Shown: positions 850 to 18,904, numbered from the stretch's first letter. The stretch is 64,000 nt of DNA from a virus (IMGVR_UViG_3300037067_010289:1-64000), one strand, 5' to 3'. Translations and numbers: made by a program. Notes: generated by a model not told the origin, from the sequence alone.

Positions 850-923
850 TCCGAGATCGACTAACGGTAGGTCAACGGGCTTTGAACCCGTTAGCGAAGG
901 TTCGAGTCCTTCCCTCGGAACCA
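850..923 (+). tRNA. tRNA-Gln(UUG)
   Basis: Cloverleaf; anticodon arm ACGGG-CTTTGAA-CCCGT, T arm GAAGG-TTCGAGT-CCTTC, encoded CCA. Confidence 0.9.
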
Positions 924-926
924 TCT

Positions 927-998
927 TGGCATGTAGCACAATGGTAGTGCGCTCGGCTGTTAACCGAATGGTTCCAGGTTCGAGTCCTGGCATGCCAG
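927..998 (+). tRNA. tRNA-Asn(GUU)
   Basis: Acceptor TGGCATG/CATGCCA, anticodon loop CTGTTAA, TTCGA T loop; CCA not encoded. Confidence 0.9.
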
Positions 999-1000
999 TT

Positions 1001-1036
1001 TGATATGTAGCACAACGGTGGTGTGCTTGGCTGTTA
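1001..1036 (+). pseudogene. degenerate 5' half of a second tRNA-Asn
   Basis: 30/36 identical to 927-962; breaks off in the anticodon loop just before the HNH ORF. Confidence 0.7.
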
Positions 1037-1039
1037 GTT

Positions 1040-1438
1040 ATGAATTCAAACAATAGAAAAAAGAGTCAGCAGTTAGGAATTAATTTTAGCACAGCCACGC
1101 ATAGGTTAAAAAAGCTTGTTATGTTTGACCTTGTTCAAAAAACATTTCAAGATACTTGTTTTAGGTGCGGGCAGAAGATTAAATTTCCTGATGAACTTTC
1201 GGTCGAGCATAAAGAAGCTTGGCTGGATAGCCCCAATCCTGTTGATTTGTTTTTTAACCTAAACAATCTGGCTTTTAGCCACTTAACTTGCAACACGGCT
1301 TCAGCAAGAAGAACAAATAAGAAATACCATACTTTAGCCGAGCGTCATGCAGCCAACTTAAAACATGGACGCGAAAGTATGAAAAAGTGGTATACGACTG
1401 AAAAACGAAGACAAAAGAAATTAAGAACTGGCTATTAA
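1040..1438 (+). CDS. HNH endonuclease (free-standing, putative homing)
   Basis: CFRCG...SVEHK...NNLAFSHLTCN motif and basic C-terminus; sits inside the tRNA cluster. Confidence 0.8.
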   Translation: MNSNNRKKSQQLGINFSTATHRLKKLVMFDLVQKTFQDTCFRCGQKIKFPDELSVEHKEAWLDSPNPVDLFFNLNNLAFSHLTCNTASARRTNKKYHTLAERHAANLKHGRESMKKWYTTEKRRQKKLRTGY

Positions 1439-1455
1439 ACCTGCTGTTTTACTGT

Positions 1456-1543
1456 GGGCGTGTAGGTAAGAGGCTAAAGCCAGCAGCCTGTAAAGCTGTA
1501 CCCGCTTGCGGGTTCGAAGGTTCAAATCCTTCTGCGCCCACCA
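1456..1543 (+). tRNA. tRNA-Tyr(GUA)
   Basis: Anticodon loop CTGTAAA, long variable arm, CCA end. Confidence 0.9.
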
Positions 1544-1550
1544 ATTTGCT

Positions 1551-1625
1551 GTGGCCGTGGGATAAAGTGGTTAGTCCGGCTCCCTGTGAAGGAGAAGGTT
1601 CCGTTCGACTCGGACGGTCACCCCA
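1551..1625 (+). tRNA. tRNA-His(GUG)
   Basis: Acceptor GTGGCCG/CGGTCAC, anticodon loop CTGTGAA, C discriminator, CCA; the -1 base is T, not G. Confidence 0.8.
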
Positions 1626-1633
1626 AGTTTTAC

Positions 1634-1710
1634 GGTCTATTAGAGAAGTGGCTGTTCTCGCGGCCCTGTCACGGCTGAGACCACGGGTTCGAATCCCGTA
1701 TAGACCGCCA
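1634..1710 (+). tRNA. tRNA-Asp(GUC)
   Basis: Acceptor GGTCTAT/ATAGACC, anticodon loop CTGTCAC, GGTTCGAATCC, CCA. Confidence 0.9.
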
Positions 1711-1711
1711 A

Positions 1712-1785
1712 GCGGGTTTGGCCGAGTGGGTAGGCTCTGGTCTTCCAAACCAGTTAGACGAGTTCGATTCTCGTAGCCCGCTCCA
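1712..1785 (+). tRNA. tRNA-Gly(UCC)
   Basis: Acceptor GCGGGTT/AGCCCGC, anticodon loop CTTCCAA, CCA. Confidence 0.9.
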
Positions 1786-1789
1786 GTTT

Positions 1790-1865
1790 GCCCTTGTAGC
1801 TCAAATGGTAGAGCGTCTGCCTTGTAAGCAGAATGTTGGGAGTCCAATTCTCTCCAGGGGCTCCA
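1790..1865 (+). tRNA. tRNA-Thr(UGU)
   Basis: Anticodon loop CTTGTAA, canonical D arm, CCA; atypical T loop (TCCAATT). Confidence 0.8.
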
Positions 1866-14613: not shown

Positions 14614-15759
14614 ATGGCACGTATCGAAACAGACCCTTGGTTAGATACAGAATTTGCACCTTTGCAAAATGCAAATCCTGGCGAAGAAATCGCTGACGAG
14701 AAGTTCGTAGAAAGCGCAGCGACACCCGAAGAACTTGAAGCAATTAGGGCAGCAGAAACTGCGAACACTCCAGCAGGTAGTCCGGTTCCGGACGATACAC
14801 CTCCCGAACCACCGGTTGAGCCGACGGTAGAAACTATTGAATATGAAGATGGCTCGTCGGTAACTATTGAGCCCACTGAAACCGGACTTAAGGCAACTTT
14901 GAATCTTGGCGTCGGTGGTGGCAACGAAGTTTTTTACGGTAAAAATGAAAGTGAACTTTTACGCCAAGTGCTCCCCGCCAAGTTGAATGCAACGAAAAAG
15001 ATTAGGGAGCAGACGAAAAAGCTGAAGTTAGGCGTTGCTGCTGCGGAACCCGCGTCACCGCCGCCAGCAACACCGCACGTGCGAACGCTCACAGCGGACG
15101 AAGTTTTTGAGATCAAGAATACACTGACTGCTGATCCTGACAAAGCTTTTGATCTGTGGTTCCAAAAGAAAACCGGACTTTCTGTCGAGCAGCTTGTACG
15201 TTTGGCGCAGGAAGGCAGTGAGCGTGGACGTGAAGCGGTGGAGATGATCTCCATCGACACCGAGATAAGAATTTTTAAAGAGCTTAGGCCAGCATATCTG
15301 CCCATCGATGAGAACTACGCGCTTATGCTCGGCTGGCTTGCTAAACACAAATTGGGCCGTGAACTGAACGCTACGAATGGCGAAGAGATCATGGATCAGT
15401 TGGTTAGCAAGAAAATGTTTAACCGCACATCTTTAGTTGAAGCCTTCGATGATCTGGCATCTGACGGATTGTTGGAACTGGTTCAAGAACCGAAGGCACC
15501 TATCAACCCGGCACCAGTCAAGCCAGTGGCACCGGCTAAACCAGTTGCGCCCGCACCTGTTCAGGGGATTCCTGGGAAGAGGGTGGGAACGAGAGCGGCA
15601 GGCGCGTTTGGAATCAGCAACCGAGAAACTTCGGGCACTCCGGTTTCGAACAACCCAGCGCCCTCAGACGATGAGTTGGAAAGCATGTCTAACGAAGATG
15701 TCGAGAAGCTTATGTCCGGCGTCATCCGACTACGTGCTCAGCAATCCACTCGGCGCTAA
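14614..15759 (+). CDS. putative capsid scaffolding protein
   Basis: Acidic and Pro-rich, immediately upstream of the capsid gene; C-terminal LESMSNEDVEK helix. Confidence 0.65.
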   Translation: MARIETDPWLDTEFAPLQNANPGEEIADEKFVESAATPEELEAIRAAETANTPAGSPVPDDTPPEPPVEPTVETIEYEDGSSVTIEPTETGLKATLNLGVGGGNEVFYGKNESELLRQVLPAKLNATKKIREQTKKLKLGVAAAEPASPPPATPHVRTLTADEVFEIKNTLTADPDKAFDLWFQKKTGLSVEQLVRLAQEGSERGREAVEMISIDTEIRIFKELRPAYLPIDENYALMLGWLAKHKLGRELNATNGEEIMDQLVSKKMFNRTSLVEAFDDLASDGLLELVQEPKAPINPAPVKPVAPAKPVAPAPVQGIPGKRVGTRAAGAFGISNRETSGTPVSNNPAPSDDELESMSNEDVEKLMSGVIRLRAQQSTRR

Positions 15760-15794
15760 TCATCTAACTGTCGTTTAACGACACAAGAGGCTCT

Positions 15795-18011
15795 ATGAGC
15801 TATTCTCCTGCAAGTATTCTTACGTCGGGATCGCTGCCCAACCTCGTGGCTATCTACTATGAGCGGTCGGCAATTCCCAACCTGTAAATTGCCTTTGGGT
15901 TGGCTACATAAACGTTCTGAAAAATAGGAAGGCACAGACCCCGTTTATGTCGATGACTGACTTGTTTGGTCATCGTAAAAATCTGACTATATCCGTTAAT
16001 ATCTTAGGTTTTTTGTGGTATAGTAATAGTAAAAGAAAATCTAAGACAAGACGGAGCGAAGATTCTCATGAAAGACAACGATAAAACAAATTGGGCGTAT
16101 TTAGCTGGGTTGCTCGACGGAGAAGGTTGTTTTACGATAACAGGTACGTGGAAGAATCGTAAAGGTATTTGGCGCACGAAAACAGGGCCAAACACGTACT
16201 TTCACATCAACCTTATTATTAGTTTGTATAACACTGATCTTAAGGTTATGAAATGGTTAGTAGACCATTTCGGTGGTGTGTATTATGTTCATCATCCTTC
16301 TAAAAAACCGAGTCACAAAATAGGGTATTCGTGGCATCCAAAAGGTGCCAAGAATAAAGAGCTTCTTCTTTTGGGAATTTTACCGTATCTGGTAATCAAA
16401 AGAGAACAGGCGAAACTTTCTCTTGAATATATCCGGTTGGACGGGAAGGCTTGTCAAGAAAAACGGTTAGAACTGAGAGAAAAGATTCAAACCCTTAATG
16501 GACACGGCATGGGAAAACGCCTAACGACTAATATGTCAGACGGCCCTTCGGGGTTGAAGATAGAGTCTGGGCTTAGTGGCGACACTAAGAGTGCTCTTGA
16601 GGTGACTCAAGCTGTGGCCAGAACCACAGAGCTTTTGCCGCAAGTTAGTGAAAGCGTAGCCTAAACACAACTGAAACAGAAACCGTTGCCTTTGCGTTCT
16701 GGGAACCAAATTCAATTTTTCACCTACAGTTTGCTTTCCGGCAATACCGCGCAAGCAGCTGAAGGAACCGTGGGTTCGCCCATCGCGGAATCTTCGACCA
16801 AGATTATCGCAACCGTTGGGCAGTACGCGGATTACATTAACAGTTCGGACCTGAGTATGGATGTGGCAATCGACGACCCGTCGTTGCTGCAAAACCTCTC
16901 TACCGAACTCAACTATCGTTTGGCGTTGACGCTGAACTCTCTGGTTCAGATCACGGCAGACGCGGCCCAGGGCGTCGATGGTTCGGTGACGATTACCTTG
17001 GCTGATGGTTCTTATCTGACGGCGAATAACATTCGTTCGGCGTGCCAGCAACTGGCGGGTATCAATGCTCGTCCGTTGACCGGCGACGGCTACTACGGTG
17101 GGATTATCCATCCGTTCGTAGTCCGCGACGTGCTGAATGATACGTCGTTCAACGGCTTGACCGATATCTTGAAGCGGTCGGCTGACGGTCAAGAAAAACT
17201 GCTTGCACCGGTGCCCAACGAGGATACGATCACGTTTGGCGGCGTGAAATTCAAGCAGACAACCACTACTCCGACGACAACCATTTCCGGCAACACTTAC
17301 TACAACACGTATTTGTTTGCTGACGATGCGCTGTTTTCGGTTTTCCTTGGGAAGAACCCTCAAACTGGTGAGAAGAACTACCGTCTTCTTATCCAGGAGG
17401 CACCAGCTCAAGGCAGCGTAGCCGATCCGGCTCGCCAAATCGGTGGATACAGCGACCTGTCCACTGTAGACCTTATGTAGCATGAGGGGTCAGCTACAAC
17501 GTTGTATTTAACGGCGTTGTCTAAAGTTCTCCTGATTGACTCGAACCCTGAGACGGCAACGAGGCGGAACCCGAAAGGGACCGTGAGAGACTGAGCGGAG
17601 AACCCCGAAAGGGATGCAACAGTCCGTCCTTGCGCTAAATGAAGTGCAAGAGGCTGGCAGAAATGACCAGCCCCGCCGCAAGGCGAGTAACACCGAGTAA
17701 ATACACCAACACACTGCGTAATTAATCCGGGGCGCAGTTGAATTGTCATGGTAATCCGCCCGGTTCTACAATGACAATTCGGAGACTTAACAGATTGCGG
17801 GTCTCCTTAAACTCTCTCTGATTGACTTGAACGCTGAAATGCCAACAAGGGGCAAGCCGAAAGGTAGCCTGAACGACTAAGCGAGAGAGCAGCGAAAGCT
17901 GATGCGATAGTCTGCACTGCAAGAAATAGTAACTTGCAGAGGCTGGCAGAAATGACCAGCCCCGCCGTAAGGCGAGTAACAAACGGCCAATCCGAAACGT
18001 CCTCAAGCTAG
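15795..18011 (+). CDS. major capsid protein (N4-gp56-like), 7 exons: join(15795..15883,15928..15958,16674..17448,17487..17502,17698..17719,17759..17787,17987..18011), 328 aa
   Basis: Joined exons total 987 nt with no internal stop: MSYSPAS...AIPNLKAQTPFMSMTKQKPLPLRSGNQIQFF...DPARQIGGWVSYNVKYTNTLRPGSTMTIRRLQSETSSS*; every 5' exon ends in U and every intron ends in G. Confidence 0.85.
15884..15927 (+). other. core-less group I-like mini-intron A (44 nt)
   Basis: P1 CCAACCU/GGGUUGG with U.G; P10 UGCCUUU/GAAGGCA; terminal G; in-frame TAA if retained. Confidence 0.75.
16016..16024 (+). promoter_or_regulatory. possible extended -10 promoter for the intron-encoded endonuclease
   Basis: TG-G-TATAGT about 45 nt upstream of the LAGLIDADG start, in an AT-rich loop of the intron. 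Confidence 0.4.
16068..16664 (+). CDS. single-motif LAGLIDADG homing endonuclease (intron-encoded)
   Basis: WAYLAGLLDGEG and LPYLVIKREQA motifs. Confidence 0.9.
   Translation: MKDNDKTNWAYLAGLLDGEGCFTITGTWKNRKGIWRTKTGPNTYFHINLIISLYNTDLKVMKWLVDHFGGVYYVHHPSKKPSHKIGYSWHPKGAKNKELLLLGILPYLVIKREQAKLSLEYIRLDGKACQEKRLELREKIQTLNGHGMGKRLTTNMSDGPSGLKIESGLSGDTKSALEVTQAVARTTELLPQVSESVA
17449..17486 (+). other. core-less group I-like mini-intron C (38 nt)
   Basis: P1 GGUGGAU/GUCCACU with U.G; P10 GACCU/GGGUC; terminal G; removal creates a Trp codon (U|GG). Confidence 0.75.
17503..17697 (+). ncRNA. compact ORF-less group I intron D (195 nt)
   Basis: P1 ACAACGU/GCGUUGU, P10 UGUAUUUA/UAAAUACA, P3 GUUCUCC/GGAGAAC, P7 GACUG/CAGUC, GNRA hairpins, terminal G. 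Confidence 0.9.
17720..17758 (+). other. core-less group I-like mini-intron E (39 nt)
   Basis: P1 ACUGCGU/GCGCAGU with U.G; P10 CCGGG/CCCGG; terminal G; in-frame TAA if retained. Confidence 0.75.
17788..17986 (+). ncRNA. compact ORF-less group I intron F (199 nt)
   Basis: P1 GGAGACU/GGUCUCC, P10 GAUUG/CAAUC, P3 CUCUCUC/GAGAGAG, P7 GACUA/UAGUC, terminal G. Confidence 0.9.
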
Positions 18012-18027
18012 GATTATCGCAGAAATG

Positions 18028-18036
18028 TGATATAAT
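18028..18036 (+). promoter_or_regulatory. extended -10 promoter upstream of the GIY-YIG gene
   Basis: TG-A-TATAAT perfect consensus. Confidence 0.6.
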
Positions 18037-18109
18037 AGAATGAGGGCAGTCTGGTTTGGGGTGGTGCCTCCACACCGCCCCAAATCAGCAAAACTCATGG
18101 AGGTGGGTT

Positions 18110-18904
18110 TTGTATCGCTTATACTTAATAACAAATAGCGTTAATCAAAAAGTTTATATAGGCCAAACGGTTAGAAGTTTAAAAGCACGATGGAGGTCGC
18201 ATCTAAGTGCTTCCAAAGAGGCTAGAGTAAAAGATGTCTACTTTTATCGCGCTATTAACAAATATGGGCCAGCAGCTTTTACTATGGAAGAACTGGCTCA
18301 AACTGAAAGTAAAGTAGAAATTGATAGGCTAGAAAAATTTTGGATTGGTTTTTGCTTGTCCTTTCAAAAAGACAAAGGCTATAACACGACCTTTGGCGGC
18401 GAAGGTGGGAGACAAACCCCCGAGGTTCGTCGAAAAATTGGAGAAGCATCGAAACGACTTTGGCAAGACCCTGATTTTCGAAAAAGAAGTTGTCAAACAC
18501 GAAAAGGCTTGCTTGTTGGGGCGCGAAACCCCATGTTTGGCAAGAGTTCTTTTAAAGGTAAAAAGCATACGGACCTAACTAAACTTAAGTTAAGTCTTAT
18601 TAAAAAAGAACAGTTTTCTGACCCTAGCTTTAAACTAAAAATGACTTTGGCCAGCACAGGTAAGCACCACACAGCAGCGGGGCGAGCTAATATTTCTCGT
18701 GGGCTGCAAGGAAACCAATATCGTAAAGGCATACCCCACTCGGAAGAAGTAAAAGAACGAATTCGTAATTCAATGAAAGCTGCGTGGGTTCTTAGAAAGA
18801 ATAAAAAGTTTAATTCTGCCCAAGAGTTGTCCGAAACCGGATTGGGGAAAGACAAAAACTTAGCAGAATCTATGGATGCACCGATTACCCTTGCCGGGGT
18901 TTGA
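18110..18904 (+). CDS. GIY-YIG homing endonuclease with NUMOD3-like repeats (free-standing)
   Basis: LYLITNSVNQKVYIGQT, GYN-x-T-x-GG, NPMFGK, KHT and PHSEE repeats; TTG start after GGAGG. Confidence 0.85.
   Translation: MYRLYLITNSVNQKVYIGQTVRSLKARWRSHLSASKEARVKDVYFYRAINKYGPAAFTMEELAQTESKVEIDRLEKFWIGFCLSFQKDKGYNTTFGGEGGRQTPEVRRKIGEASKRLWQDPDFRKRSCQTRKGLLVGARNPMFGKSSFKGKKHTDLTKLKLSLIKKEQFSDPSFKLKMTLASTGKHHTAAGRANISRGLQGNQYRKGIPHSEEVKERIRNSMKAAWVLRKNKKFNSAQELSETGLGKDKNLAESMDAPITLAGV

What the first reader, a model, noticed from the sequence alone, without database searches (positions are those of the whole stretch)
15884..15958. Mini-intron A with a 9-bp antisense tether to its micro-exon
Seen: besides P1 and P10, ACATAAACG (15906-15914) is the exact complement of CGTTTATGT (15942-15950) in exon 2. 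This helix ends immediately 5' of the P1 strand of intron B (15951-15958). Inference: the helix places the satellite P1 and terminal G next to the core of intron B.
Basis: partly seen in the sequence, partly recalled or inferred. Interest (0 to 1): 0.85.

Follow-up and report, generated by a model that had tools for sequence, protein, structure and literature searches.

The report
Antisense helix of a core-less mini-intron
A 44-base interruption in a soil phage's only capsid gene looks like a group I intron that has lost its catalytic core, and the 9-bp helix that ties it to the next 31-base exon recurs in related phages, where it tends to sit directly against the first helix of a complete intron downstream; no RNA data show that it is spliced.

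Summary
ACATAAACG (15906-15914) is the exact complement of CGTTTATGT (15942-15950). The helix ends one base before P1 of intron B (15951-15958 / 15968-75). Free-energy folding gives P1(A), this helix ("T") and P1(B) as three successive helices.

The 44 nt at 15884-15927 follow a U, end in G, and have a 7-bp P1 with U.G and a 6-7 bp P10, but no room for a core. Removing them restores ..AIPNL|KAQTPFMSMT|KQKPL.. of intact homologues. The genome is a complete 94-kb phage with one capsid gene.

I curated 27 such mini-introns (32-59 nt, seven site groups), and two more turned up later. T is specific to them: 23 of 27 have at least 6 bp, against 4 of 65 full introns. T co-varies with its own exon. 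It abuts P1 of the next full intron more often than chance (6 of 12, expected 1.3).

T also exists where the next full intron lies 116-270 nt away, so it is not only a tether. The two bases before the terminal G match those of the next full intron in 10 of 25 pairs (P about 1e-5), but not in A/B.

Closest known are the small fungal rDNA group I introns with a "PM" pairing. Splicing by intron B's core is inferred, not shown. One contig (L250) keeps a mini-intron while lacking the full intron.

The parts
15795..15883 (+). Capsid exon 1 (MSYSPASILT..AIPN + CT of Leu30)
   Evidence: Spliced protein-to-DNA alignment against the intact homologue P0020; ORF list
15877..15883 (+). P1(A) 5' strand, CCAACCU; U15883 is the 5' splice-site U
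   Evidence: Pairs with GGGUUGG 15897-15903 with U15883.G15897; the pair at the Pro codon's third base varies C-G / U-A / G-C among homologues
15884..15927 (+). Mini-intron A, 44 nt, ends in G15927; in-frame UAA at 15885-87
   Evidence: removal restores the homologous protein at no cost in alignment score under the U|...G| rule
15890..15896 (+). P10(A) guide strand, UGCCUUU, directly 5' of the P1 guide strand
   Evidence: Pairs with GAAGGCA 15928-15934; the outermost pair shows U-A, A-U and C-G among homologues
15897..15903 (+). P1(A) 3' strand (internal guide), GGGUUGG
15906..15914 (+). Helix T, 5' strand, ACAUAAACG (the finding)
15928..15958 (+). Micro-exon 2, 31 nt: G of Leu30 + KAQTPFMSMT
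   Evidence: exact match to the conserved residues 31-40 of intact homologues
15942..15950 (+). Helix T, 3' strand, CGUUUAUGU, inside micro-exon 2
15951..15958 (+). P1(B) 5' strand, CGAUGACU, which abuts helix T with no gap
   Evidence: Pairs with GGUCAUCG 15968-15975, U15958.G15968
15959..16673 (+). Intron B, 715 nt, full group I intron that holds a LAGLIDADG ORF (16068-16664)
   Evidence: Boundaries. Rfam RF00028 22.5 bits, E 0.015 in the region and 6e-5 in the genome, below the gathering score. The ORF has a weak hit to PF00961. P10(B) UUGUUU 15962-67 x AAACAG 16674-79 was read
16674..17448 (+). Capsid exon 3
17449..17486 (+). Second mini-intron (38 nt); its helix is 17476-81 x 17493-98 and overlaps P1 of the next full intron by 3 nt
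17503..17697 (+). Full intron, 195 nt
17720..17758 (+). Third mini-intron (39 nt); its 10-bp helix is 17740-49 x 17771-80 and abuts P1 (17781-87) of the next full intron
17788..17986 (+). Full intron, 199 nt; the last exon is 17987-18011

Best explanation
The 9-bp helix (T) is a selected RNA pairing. It belongs to a family of core-less, group I-type mini-introns in the capsid genes of these phages.

Shown: mini-intron A keeps only the substrate parts of a group I intron. These are a P1 hairpin with U.G at the 5' splice site, a P10 guide directly 5' of it, and a terminal G. Helix T pairs the 3' half of the mini-intron with the micro-exon. It thereby closes a 27-nt loop that holds the terminal G, the 3' splice site and the exon strand of P10. 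P10 is therefore a loop-loop contact between the P1(A) hairpin and the T hairpin. T ends where P1 of intron B begins, so P1(A), T and P1(B) meet at one three-helix junction.

Inferred: intron B's core, which starts right after P1(B), docks P1(A) in place of P1(B). From that viewpoint T and P1(B) look like a P2/P2.1 extension. Free guanosine cuts after U15883. G15927 then enters the G site, and exon 1 is joined to G15928. The excised mini-intron takes the 5' strand of T with it. P1(B) then docks and B splices itself.

T has an intrinsic role in pre-organising the 3' splice site, because it persists without an adjacent intron. It has a second role, cis proximity, in adjacent pairs such as A/B.
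For: Precise removal is required. The genome is a complete 94,289-bp virus with one capsid gene. The micro-exons keep the conserved residues. All 27 curated mini-introns carry an in-frame stop.

Group I signatures are present. U|...G| is met at no alignment cost by all six interruptions of the window. All 27 curated mini-introns could be placed under that rule with a small bonus; where the scores with and without the bonus were compared (L029, L031, L035, L040) it cost nothing. P1 has 7-10 pairs, in six mini-introns with one internal mismatch. P10 has 3-9 bp directly 5' of the P1 guide strand where it was scored; a few values come from a mis-set P1. Compensatory changes are seen in both helices.

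T is real and specific. Folding recovers it with z = -2.6, -3.4 and -2.8 for the three pairs of the window. At least 6 bp are found in 23 of 27 mini-introns against 4 of 65 full introns, Mann-Whitney P = 7e-10. Each mini-intron pairs best with its own exon: for the site-30 family the diagonal mean is 7.8 bp and the off-diagonal mean 4.95 bp. Between the window and L117 two base pairs changed on both sides.

There are links to the downstream intron. T abuts its P1 with gap 0 in 6 of 12 cases where the position was free (P = 5e-4), and L256 adds one more case. All 25 curated mini-introns with complete data have a full intron downstream in the same gene. The two bases before the terminal G equal those of that intron in 10 of 25 pairs, against a permutation mean of 2.6, P about 1e-5. 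Partner introns of this family pass Rfam's group I threshold, including L046 719-889, which follows directly after a mini-intron.
Against: No RNA data show that A is spliced at all.

T is also present where the next full intron lies 116-270 nt away (L031, L040, L043, L064, L103). Adjacency is therefore not needed.

In the A/B pair the bases before the terminal G differ (AUAG against ACUG).

Contig L250 is 100% identical to L031 but lacks the 663-nt full intron while keeping the 42-nt mini-intron. It is either a partly spliced RNA or a DNA variant without any full intron in the capsid gene.

The statistics rest on related sequences that are not fully independent.

Intron B reaches only 22.5 bits on RF00028.
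Confidence: 0.5

Rival explanations
1. The mini-introns are group I-type substrates spliced in trans by any group I ribozyme of the phage, for example released linear introns. T only pre-organises the 3' splice site. Its position against P1 of a neighbour is a by-product of short exons or of coaxial stacking, not a tether.
For: T persists in five mini-introns whose next full intron lies 116-270 nt away. Combinations of the mini-intron at site 30 and the full intron at site 39/40 occur independently: both, either one alone, or neither. L250 may be a gene with a mini-intron but no full intron. Engineered ribozymes excise internal segments in trans (abstract of PMC2532722).
Against: Every curated mini-intron lies upstream of a full intron in the same gene, which a purely trans mechanism does not predict. 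Gap-0 abutment is enriched (P = 5e-4), including cases where T lies 20-28 nt from its own 3' splice site but directly against the next P1 (L067, L103 site 89, L124). The dinucleotide match is with the next intron specifically.
Confidence: 0.25
2. The mini-intron is an autonomous minimal ribozyme helped by flanking exon structure, as claimed for the 67-nt PaSSU intron of Phialophora. T would be the equivalent of its PM pairing.
For: The architecture is the same in part: P1, P10 and a pairing of the middle of the intron with the 3' exon (PMC3160393).
Against: The sequences are 32-59 nt long and have no second hairpin that could serve as P7 or a G-binding site. The association with downstream full introns and the shared 3' dinucleotide would be left unexplained.
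Confidence: 0.07
3. Removal is carried out by a protein or by an unknown mechanism, for example an endonuclease plus an RNA ligase that seals exons aligned on the P1/P10 splint. T would serve as a recognition or stability element.
For: P1 and P10 align the two exon ends on one guide strand like a nicked duplex. No catalytic RNA is demonstrated.
Against: The invariant U.G wobble and terminal G are group I requirements and are not needed by protein enzymes. No candidate enzymes were sought.
Confidence: 0.1
4. The interruption is crossed by ribosome hopping over a coding gap, as in T4 gene 60. T would be part of the compact mRNA fold that promotes the hop.
For: In A the codon before the in-frame UAA (CUG, 15882-84) recurs at 15917-19 in frame with exon 2. 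That hop would add Lys-Asn-Arg. The third mini-intron has an analogous AAU...AAU pair.
Against: Only 5 of 27 mini-introns have an in-frame matched codon, and 14 have no matched codon at all. The frames of the matched codons are 6 in frame against 10 out of frame, as chance predicts. Several junctions split codons; for example Trp299 is rebuilt from U|GG. The products would carry insertions that are absent from every homologue.
Confidence: 0.02
5. The gene is decaying or the sequence is an artefact, and the helix is a footprint of snap-back DNA repair rather than a functional RNA pairing.
For: About half of the mini-intron is antisense to flanking exon sequence.
Against: The genome is complete and has a single capsid gene. 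Identical sequence is found in three assemblies. The micro-exons are conserved. Compensatory changes keep P1, P10 and T paired in diverged relatives.
Confidence: 0.03

Closest known systems
Small 'degenerate' group I introns of fungal nuclear rDNA (PaSSU of Phialophora, Arthonia, Porpidia; 56-81 nt; Harris & Rogers 2011, PMC3160393)
   Same: Far below the size of a group I core. [quoted passage not shown] Their splicing needs sequence context outside the intron.
   Different: The fungal introns are reported to keep a P7 hairpin, to use a terminal U in PaSSU, to sit in rRNA at one or two sites, and to self-splice in vitro with a long exon context. Here there is no P7, the terminal base is always G, and the sizes are 32-59 nt. 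The introns lie in a phage protein-coding gene at seven or more sites, always upstream of a complete group I intron, and T tends to abut that intron's P1.
Engineered trans-excision-splicing by group I ribozymes (Pneumocystis, Tetrahymena, Candida; PMC2532722)
   Same: A group I core excises an internal segment from a separate substrate and ligates the flanks.
   Different: In that system the guide sequences sit in the ribozyme, and it is an artificial reaction. Here the guide (P1 and P10 strands) sits in the excised segment, and the system is natural.
T4 gene 60 translational bypass of a 50-nt coding gap (own knowledge)
   Same: A gap of about 50 nt in a phage gene, a stop codon right after the take-off position in A, and a compact mRNA structure.
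   Different: It requires matched take-off and landing codons. These are absent or out of frame in 22 of 27 mini-introns.
Group III and other degenerate group II introns of Euglena plastids (own knowledge)
   Same: Streamlined introns that have lost most catalytic domains and are thought to depend on helpers.
   Different: A different intron class with different chemistry, found in organelles; no defined neighbouring helper.
Twintrons and twin-ribozyme group I introns such as Didymium DiSSU1 (own knowledge)
   Same: Two intron-related RNA units in close physical association.
   Different: Those are nested and each unit has its own catalytic core. Here the two units lie in series, are separated by a coding micro-exon, and only one has a core.

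Membership tests
Group I self-splicing intron | P1 helix formed by the 5' exon end and an internal guide, with U.G at the 5' splice site | tested here: met
   CCAACCU 15877-83 pairs with GGGUUGG 15897-903, U15883.G15897. The same holds in all 27 curated mini-introns, with compensatory changes.
Group I self-splicing intron | [quoted passage not shown] | tested here: met
   G15927. The U|...G| rule is met at no alignment cost by all six interruptions of the window, and all 27 curated mini-introns could be placed under it.
Group I self-splicing intron | P10 between the guide and the start of the 3' exon | tested here: met
   UGCCUU(U) 15890-96 pairs with (G)AAGGCA 15928-34. The outermost pair shows three pair types among homologues.
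Group I self-splicing intron | Catalytic core P3-P9 with a G-binding site in P7 | tested here: not met
   Only 24 nt lie between the guide strand and the terminal G, and 9 of them form T. No Rfam match was found in 15884-15958 even at E up to 10.
Group I self-splicing intron | Excision by two transesterifications started by free guanosine | not testable with these tools
   No RNA run was listed.
Small degenerate group I introns (PaSSU type, PMC3160393) | P1, P10 and a PM pairing (middle of the intron with the 3' exon) | tested here: met
   T is a PM-like pairing (definition).
Small degenerate group I introns (PaSSU type, PMC3160393) | A retained P7-like hairpin; location in nuclear rDNA; common descent with the fungal clade | tested here: not met
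   There is no further hairpin in the fold. The host is a phage capsid mRNA. No sequence relation was examined.
Programmed translational bypass (T4 gene 60 type) | Matched take-off and landing codons in frame, with a stop after take-off | tested here: inconclusive
   A alone has CUG-UAA...CUG in frame, which would add 3 residues. The family as a whole fails: 5 of 27.
Full group I intron (intron B, the proposed helper) | Match to the group I covariance model | tested here: inconclusive
   22.5 bits against a gathering score of 50, E 0.015 and 6e-5 in the genome. B holds a LAGLIDADG ORF and has P1 with U.G and a P10. Related introns in the same gene family pass the threshold with 50-61 bits.

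The most novel reading that the evidence does not exclude
This would be a natural 'one ribozyme, two introns' system. Core-less mini-introns of 32-59 nt would be parasites of a neighbouring group I intron. They would be spliced in cis by its core, which swaps between two P1 hairpins held at one three-helix junction by the antisense helix T. The helper's own splicing would end the time window for excision, which would explain why mini-introns always lie upstream of a full intron.
Probability: 0.4. Interest if true: 0.9.

Novelty: new variant of a known kind. Interest (0 to 1): 0.8.

Why it matters
If true, these would be the smallest group I-type introns known. They would also be the first in a phage protein-coding gene, and a natural case of a group I ribozyme working on a substrate other than its own splice sites, which so far has been an engineered reaction. 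It would show how introns that lose their core can survive as satellites of a neighbour.

It also explains why capsid genes of this abundant soil phage group are annotated as fragments: 38-44 nt interruptions are invisible to gene callers and to Rfam.

The system is small enough (about 110 nt for P1(A)-T-P1(B) plus a 200-nt ribozyme in the third pair) for direct biochemical and structural tests.

Tried and rejected
RNA evidence: no RNA holder was listed for 15700-18100, so no reads could be laid.

Ribosome hopping was tested across 27 mini-introns and rejected as a general mechanism.

A degenerate DNA pattern for site-30 mini-introns, scanned in viral contigs, was too unspecific. It gave 117 chance hits and none was real.

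I looked for a database protein identical to the conceptual fully spliced product of any mini-bearing locus among 189 fetched proteins, as a hint of spliced RNA contigs. None was found.

I tried to learn whether JGI sample 3300022713 (L250) is a metatranscriptome. It is not named in the papers or supplements searched. My recollection that this number range holds metatranscriptomes was not borne out; 3300022727 and 3300022728 are listed there as metagenomes.

The Cluster J mycobacteriophage paper has ordinary introns of 265 and 819 bp and is not relevant. The Bastillevirinae intron paper mentions no small introns.

Formal column-wise covariation of T was not possible, because the helix slides along the exon between homologues. 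A cross-pairing matrix was used instead. With five sequences the formal count for P1 and P10 is weak: 44 of 500 shuffles reach it.

Full report
**What is there**

The window is part of a complete 94,289-bp virus record with direct terminal repeats. It carries a single N4-gp56-type major capsid gene. Intact homologues of 327-329 aa begin MAYSPASILT..AIPNLKAQTPFMSMTKQKPLPLRSGNQ.

A spliced protein-to-DNA alignment of one of them (P0020) to the window needs six interruptions:
- 15884-15927 (44 nt)
- 15959-16673 (715 nt)
- 17449-17486 (38 nt)
- 17503-17697 (195 nt)
- 17720-17758 (39 nt)
- 17788-17986 (199 nt)

All six can be placed after a U and ending in G at no cost in alignment score. The 31-nt micro-exon 15928-15958 encodes exactly KAQTPFMSMT. 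The 715-nt intron holds a LAGLIDADG ORF. It gives a sub-threshold match to Rfam's group I model (22.5 bits). The whole gene is 100% identical in two further independent assemblies.

**The observation**

The 9-bp inverted repeat is at the stated coordinates, together with P1(A), P10(A) and P1(B). It is unique in the window and absent from shuffles. It has P = 0.004 in a local shuffle test. It is part of the minimum-free-energy fold, which shows P1(A), 2 nt, T, 0 nt, P1(B) (z = -2.57). The two other mini-intron/full-intron pairs of the gene fold in the same way (z = -3.42 and -2.76).

**Relatives**

Scans of IMG/VR and JGI metagenome contigs with the capsid protein gave 127 loci, and look-ups of short capsid fragments added more. 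Forty-four loci were scored as uninterrupted. Many others carry full introns of 190-1050 nt at some twenty sites, and several of these introns pass Rfam's group I gathering score.

I curated 27 distinct short interruptions of 32-59 nt at residues 30/32, 40, 89/92, 186, 277, 298/299 and 311. Two more (L253, L256) turned up later. For the 27 curated ones:
- All follow U, end in G and contain an in-frame stop.
- P1 has 7-10 pairs closed by U.G. Six have one internal mismatch, for example a conserved A x C in three of the site-30 mini-introns.
- P10 has 3-9 bp directly 5' of the P1 guide strand where it was scored; a few scored values come from a mis-set P1.

P1 and P10 co-vary with synonymous exon changes. 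In the site-30 family the third base of the Pro codon pairs as C-G, U-A, U-A, G-C and C-G. The third base of the Ala codon pairs as A-U, A-U, G-C and U-A. Mini-introns at sites 40 and 311 share their 5' module with full introns at the same sites, as if they arose by loss of the core.

**Helix T in the family**

- A Watson-Crick helix of at least 6 bp between the 3' half of the mini-intron and the next exon is found in 23 of 27 mini-introns. It is found in only 4 of 65 full introns of the same genes (means 6.8 against 4.3 bp; P = 7e-10).
- Each mini-intron pairs best with its own exon. For the site-30 family the diagonal mean is 7.8 bp and the off-diagonal mean 4.95 bp.
- In the five exon positions shared by T of the window and T of L117, two base pairs changed on both sides: G-C to C-G and U-A to C-G.
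- Where a full intron follows within 16-44 nt, T tends to end exactly where that intron's P1 begins. The gap is 0 in 6 of 12 cases where the position was free, against 1.27 expected (P = 5e-4). L256 adds another case with an 11-bp bulged helix.
- In L067, L103 (site 89) and L124, T lies 20-28 nt from its own 3' splice site but directly against the next P1.
- Site-299 mini-introns with a 38-nt exon often carry two antisense segments, one proximal and one against the next P1.

**Limits of the tether reading**

In L031, L040, L043, L064 and L103 the next full intron is 116-270 nt downstream, yet T is still there with 7-9 bp. In L080 (80 nt) no T of 6 bp or more was found; an extended P10 seems to take its place. 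T therefore has a role of its own. It closes the loop that holds the terminal G, the 3' splice site and the exon strand of P10, so that P10 becomes a contact between two hairpin loops. This is the "PM" pairing described for the 63-75-nt degenerate group I introns of Phialophora rDNA (PMC3160393).

**Who supplies the catalysis**

The mini-introns have no room for a core. Three observations point to the next full intron:
- All 25 curated mini-introns with complete data lie upstream of one in the same gene.
- T abuts its P1.
- The two bases before the terminal G, which in group I introns contact the core (P9.0, own knowledge), are identical in a mini-intron and the next full intron in 10 of 25 pairs. 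Seven different dinucleotides are involved, the permutation mean is 2.6 and P is about 1e-5.

The A/B pair does not share them. A position upstream of the helper is what a co-transcriptional cis mechanism predicts: an upstream ribozyme would already have left.

**An unexplained contig**

L250 (1,604 nt) is 100% identical to L031 but lacks the 663-nt full intron exactly at its splice junction. It keeps the 42-nt mini-intron. If it derives from RNA, it shows the helper spliced and the mini-intron retained, as a dead end or a slow step. If it is DNA, it is a capsid gene with a mini-intron and no full intron, which argues against an obligate helper in cis. The sample type could not be established.

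**Rivals**

- Hopping of the gene 60 type fails: only 5 of 27 mini-introns have an in-frame matched codon, and several junctions split codons.
- Decay or artefact is excluded by the complete genome, the single gene, the three identical assemblies and the conserved micro-exons.
- Trans action, autonomy and a protein mechanism remain possible.

**Literature**

Searches found no natural phage counterpart. The closest items are the fungal small introns and the engineered trans-excision-splicing reaction (PMC2532722).

**Verdict**

T is a conserved element of core-less group I-type mini-introns. In adjacent pairs such as A/B it stacks on the helper's P1. Its role is not limited to tethering, and catalysis by intron B remains an inference.

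Noticed in passing
window 15869-15875 and 15887-15893: A 7-bp exact inverted repeat (GGCAATT / AATTGCC) joins exon 1 upstream of P1(A) to the P1(A) loop. It overlaps the P10 guide strand, so it may be an alternative pairing that competes with P10.
   Followed up: no
L250:647-688, compared with L031:3143-3184 and L031:3336-3998: This contig is 100% identical to a 95-kb phage contig but lacks the 663-nt full intron precisely, while it retains the 42-nt mini-intron. It is either a partly spliced RNA or an intron-less DNA variant.
   Followed up: partly
25 mini-intron / next-full-intron pairs, e.g. window 17484-17486 and 17695-17697 (GAG in both): The two bases before the terminal G of a mini-intron equal those of the next full intron in 10 of 25 pairs (permutation P about 1e-5). 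This suggests that the same core recognises both 3' ends.
   Followed up: yes
L067:1028-1112, L088:714-799, L124:2288-2377: Site-299 mini-introns with a 38-nt micro-exon carry two antisense segments. Together with P10 and the next P1, nearly the whole micro-exon is base-paired.
   Followed up: partly
window 17503-17697 and 17788-17986: The two small full introns (195 and 199 nt) are about 78% identical to each other over about 170 nt. Rfam RF00028 does not detect them even at E up to 10, although related capsid-gene introns in other contigs pass the threshold.
   Followed up: partly
window 18056-18904: A free-standing GIY-YIG/NUMOD3 endonuclease gene lies directly downstream of the capsid gene, outside any intron.
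   Followed up: no
   Followed up: no
window 850-1862: A cluster of seven tRNA genes (Rfam, 43-70 bits).
   Followed up: no
L029:6142-6385 and L113:6962-7037: Related phage contigs carry a permuted tmRNA (RF04321, 77 bits) and a CyVA-1 RNA (RF02965, 55 bits) near the capsid gene.
   Followed up: no
L031:3143-3184, L040:3115-3165 compared with window 15959-15990: Mini-introns at residue 40 share the 5' module (..UUGGUCAU..) with the full intron at the same site. Mini-introns therefore seem to arise from full introns by loss of the core.
   Followed up: partly
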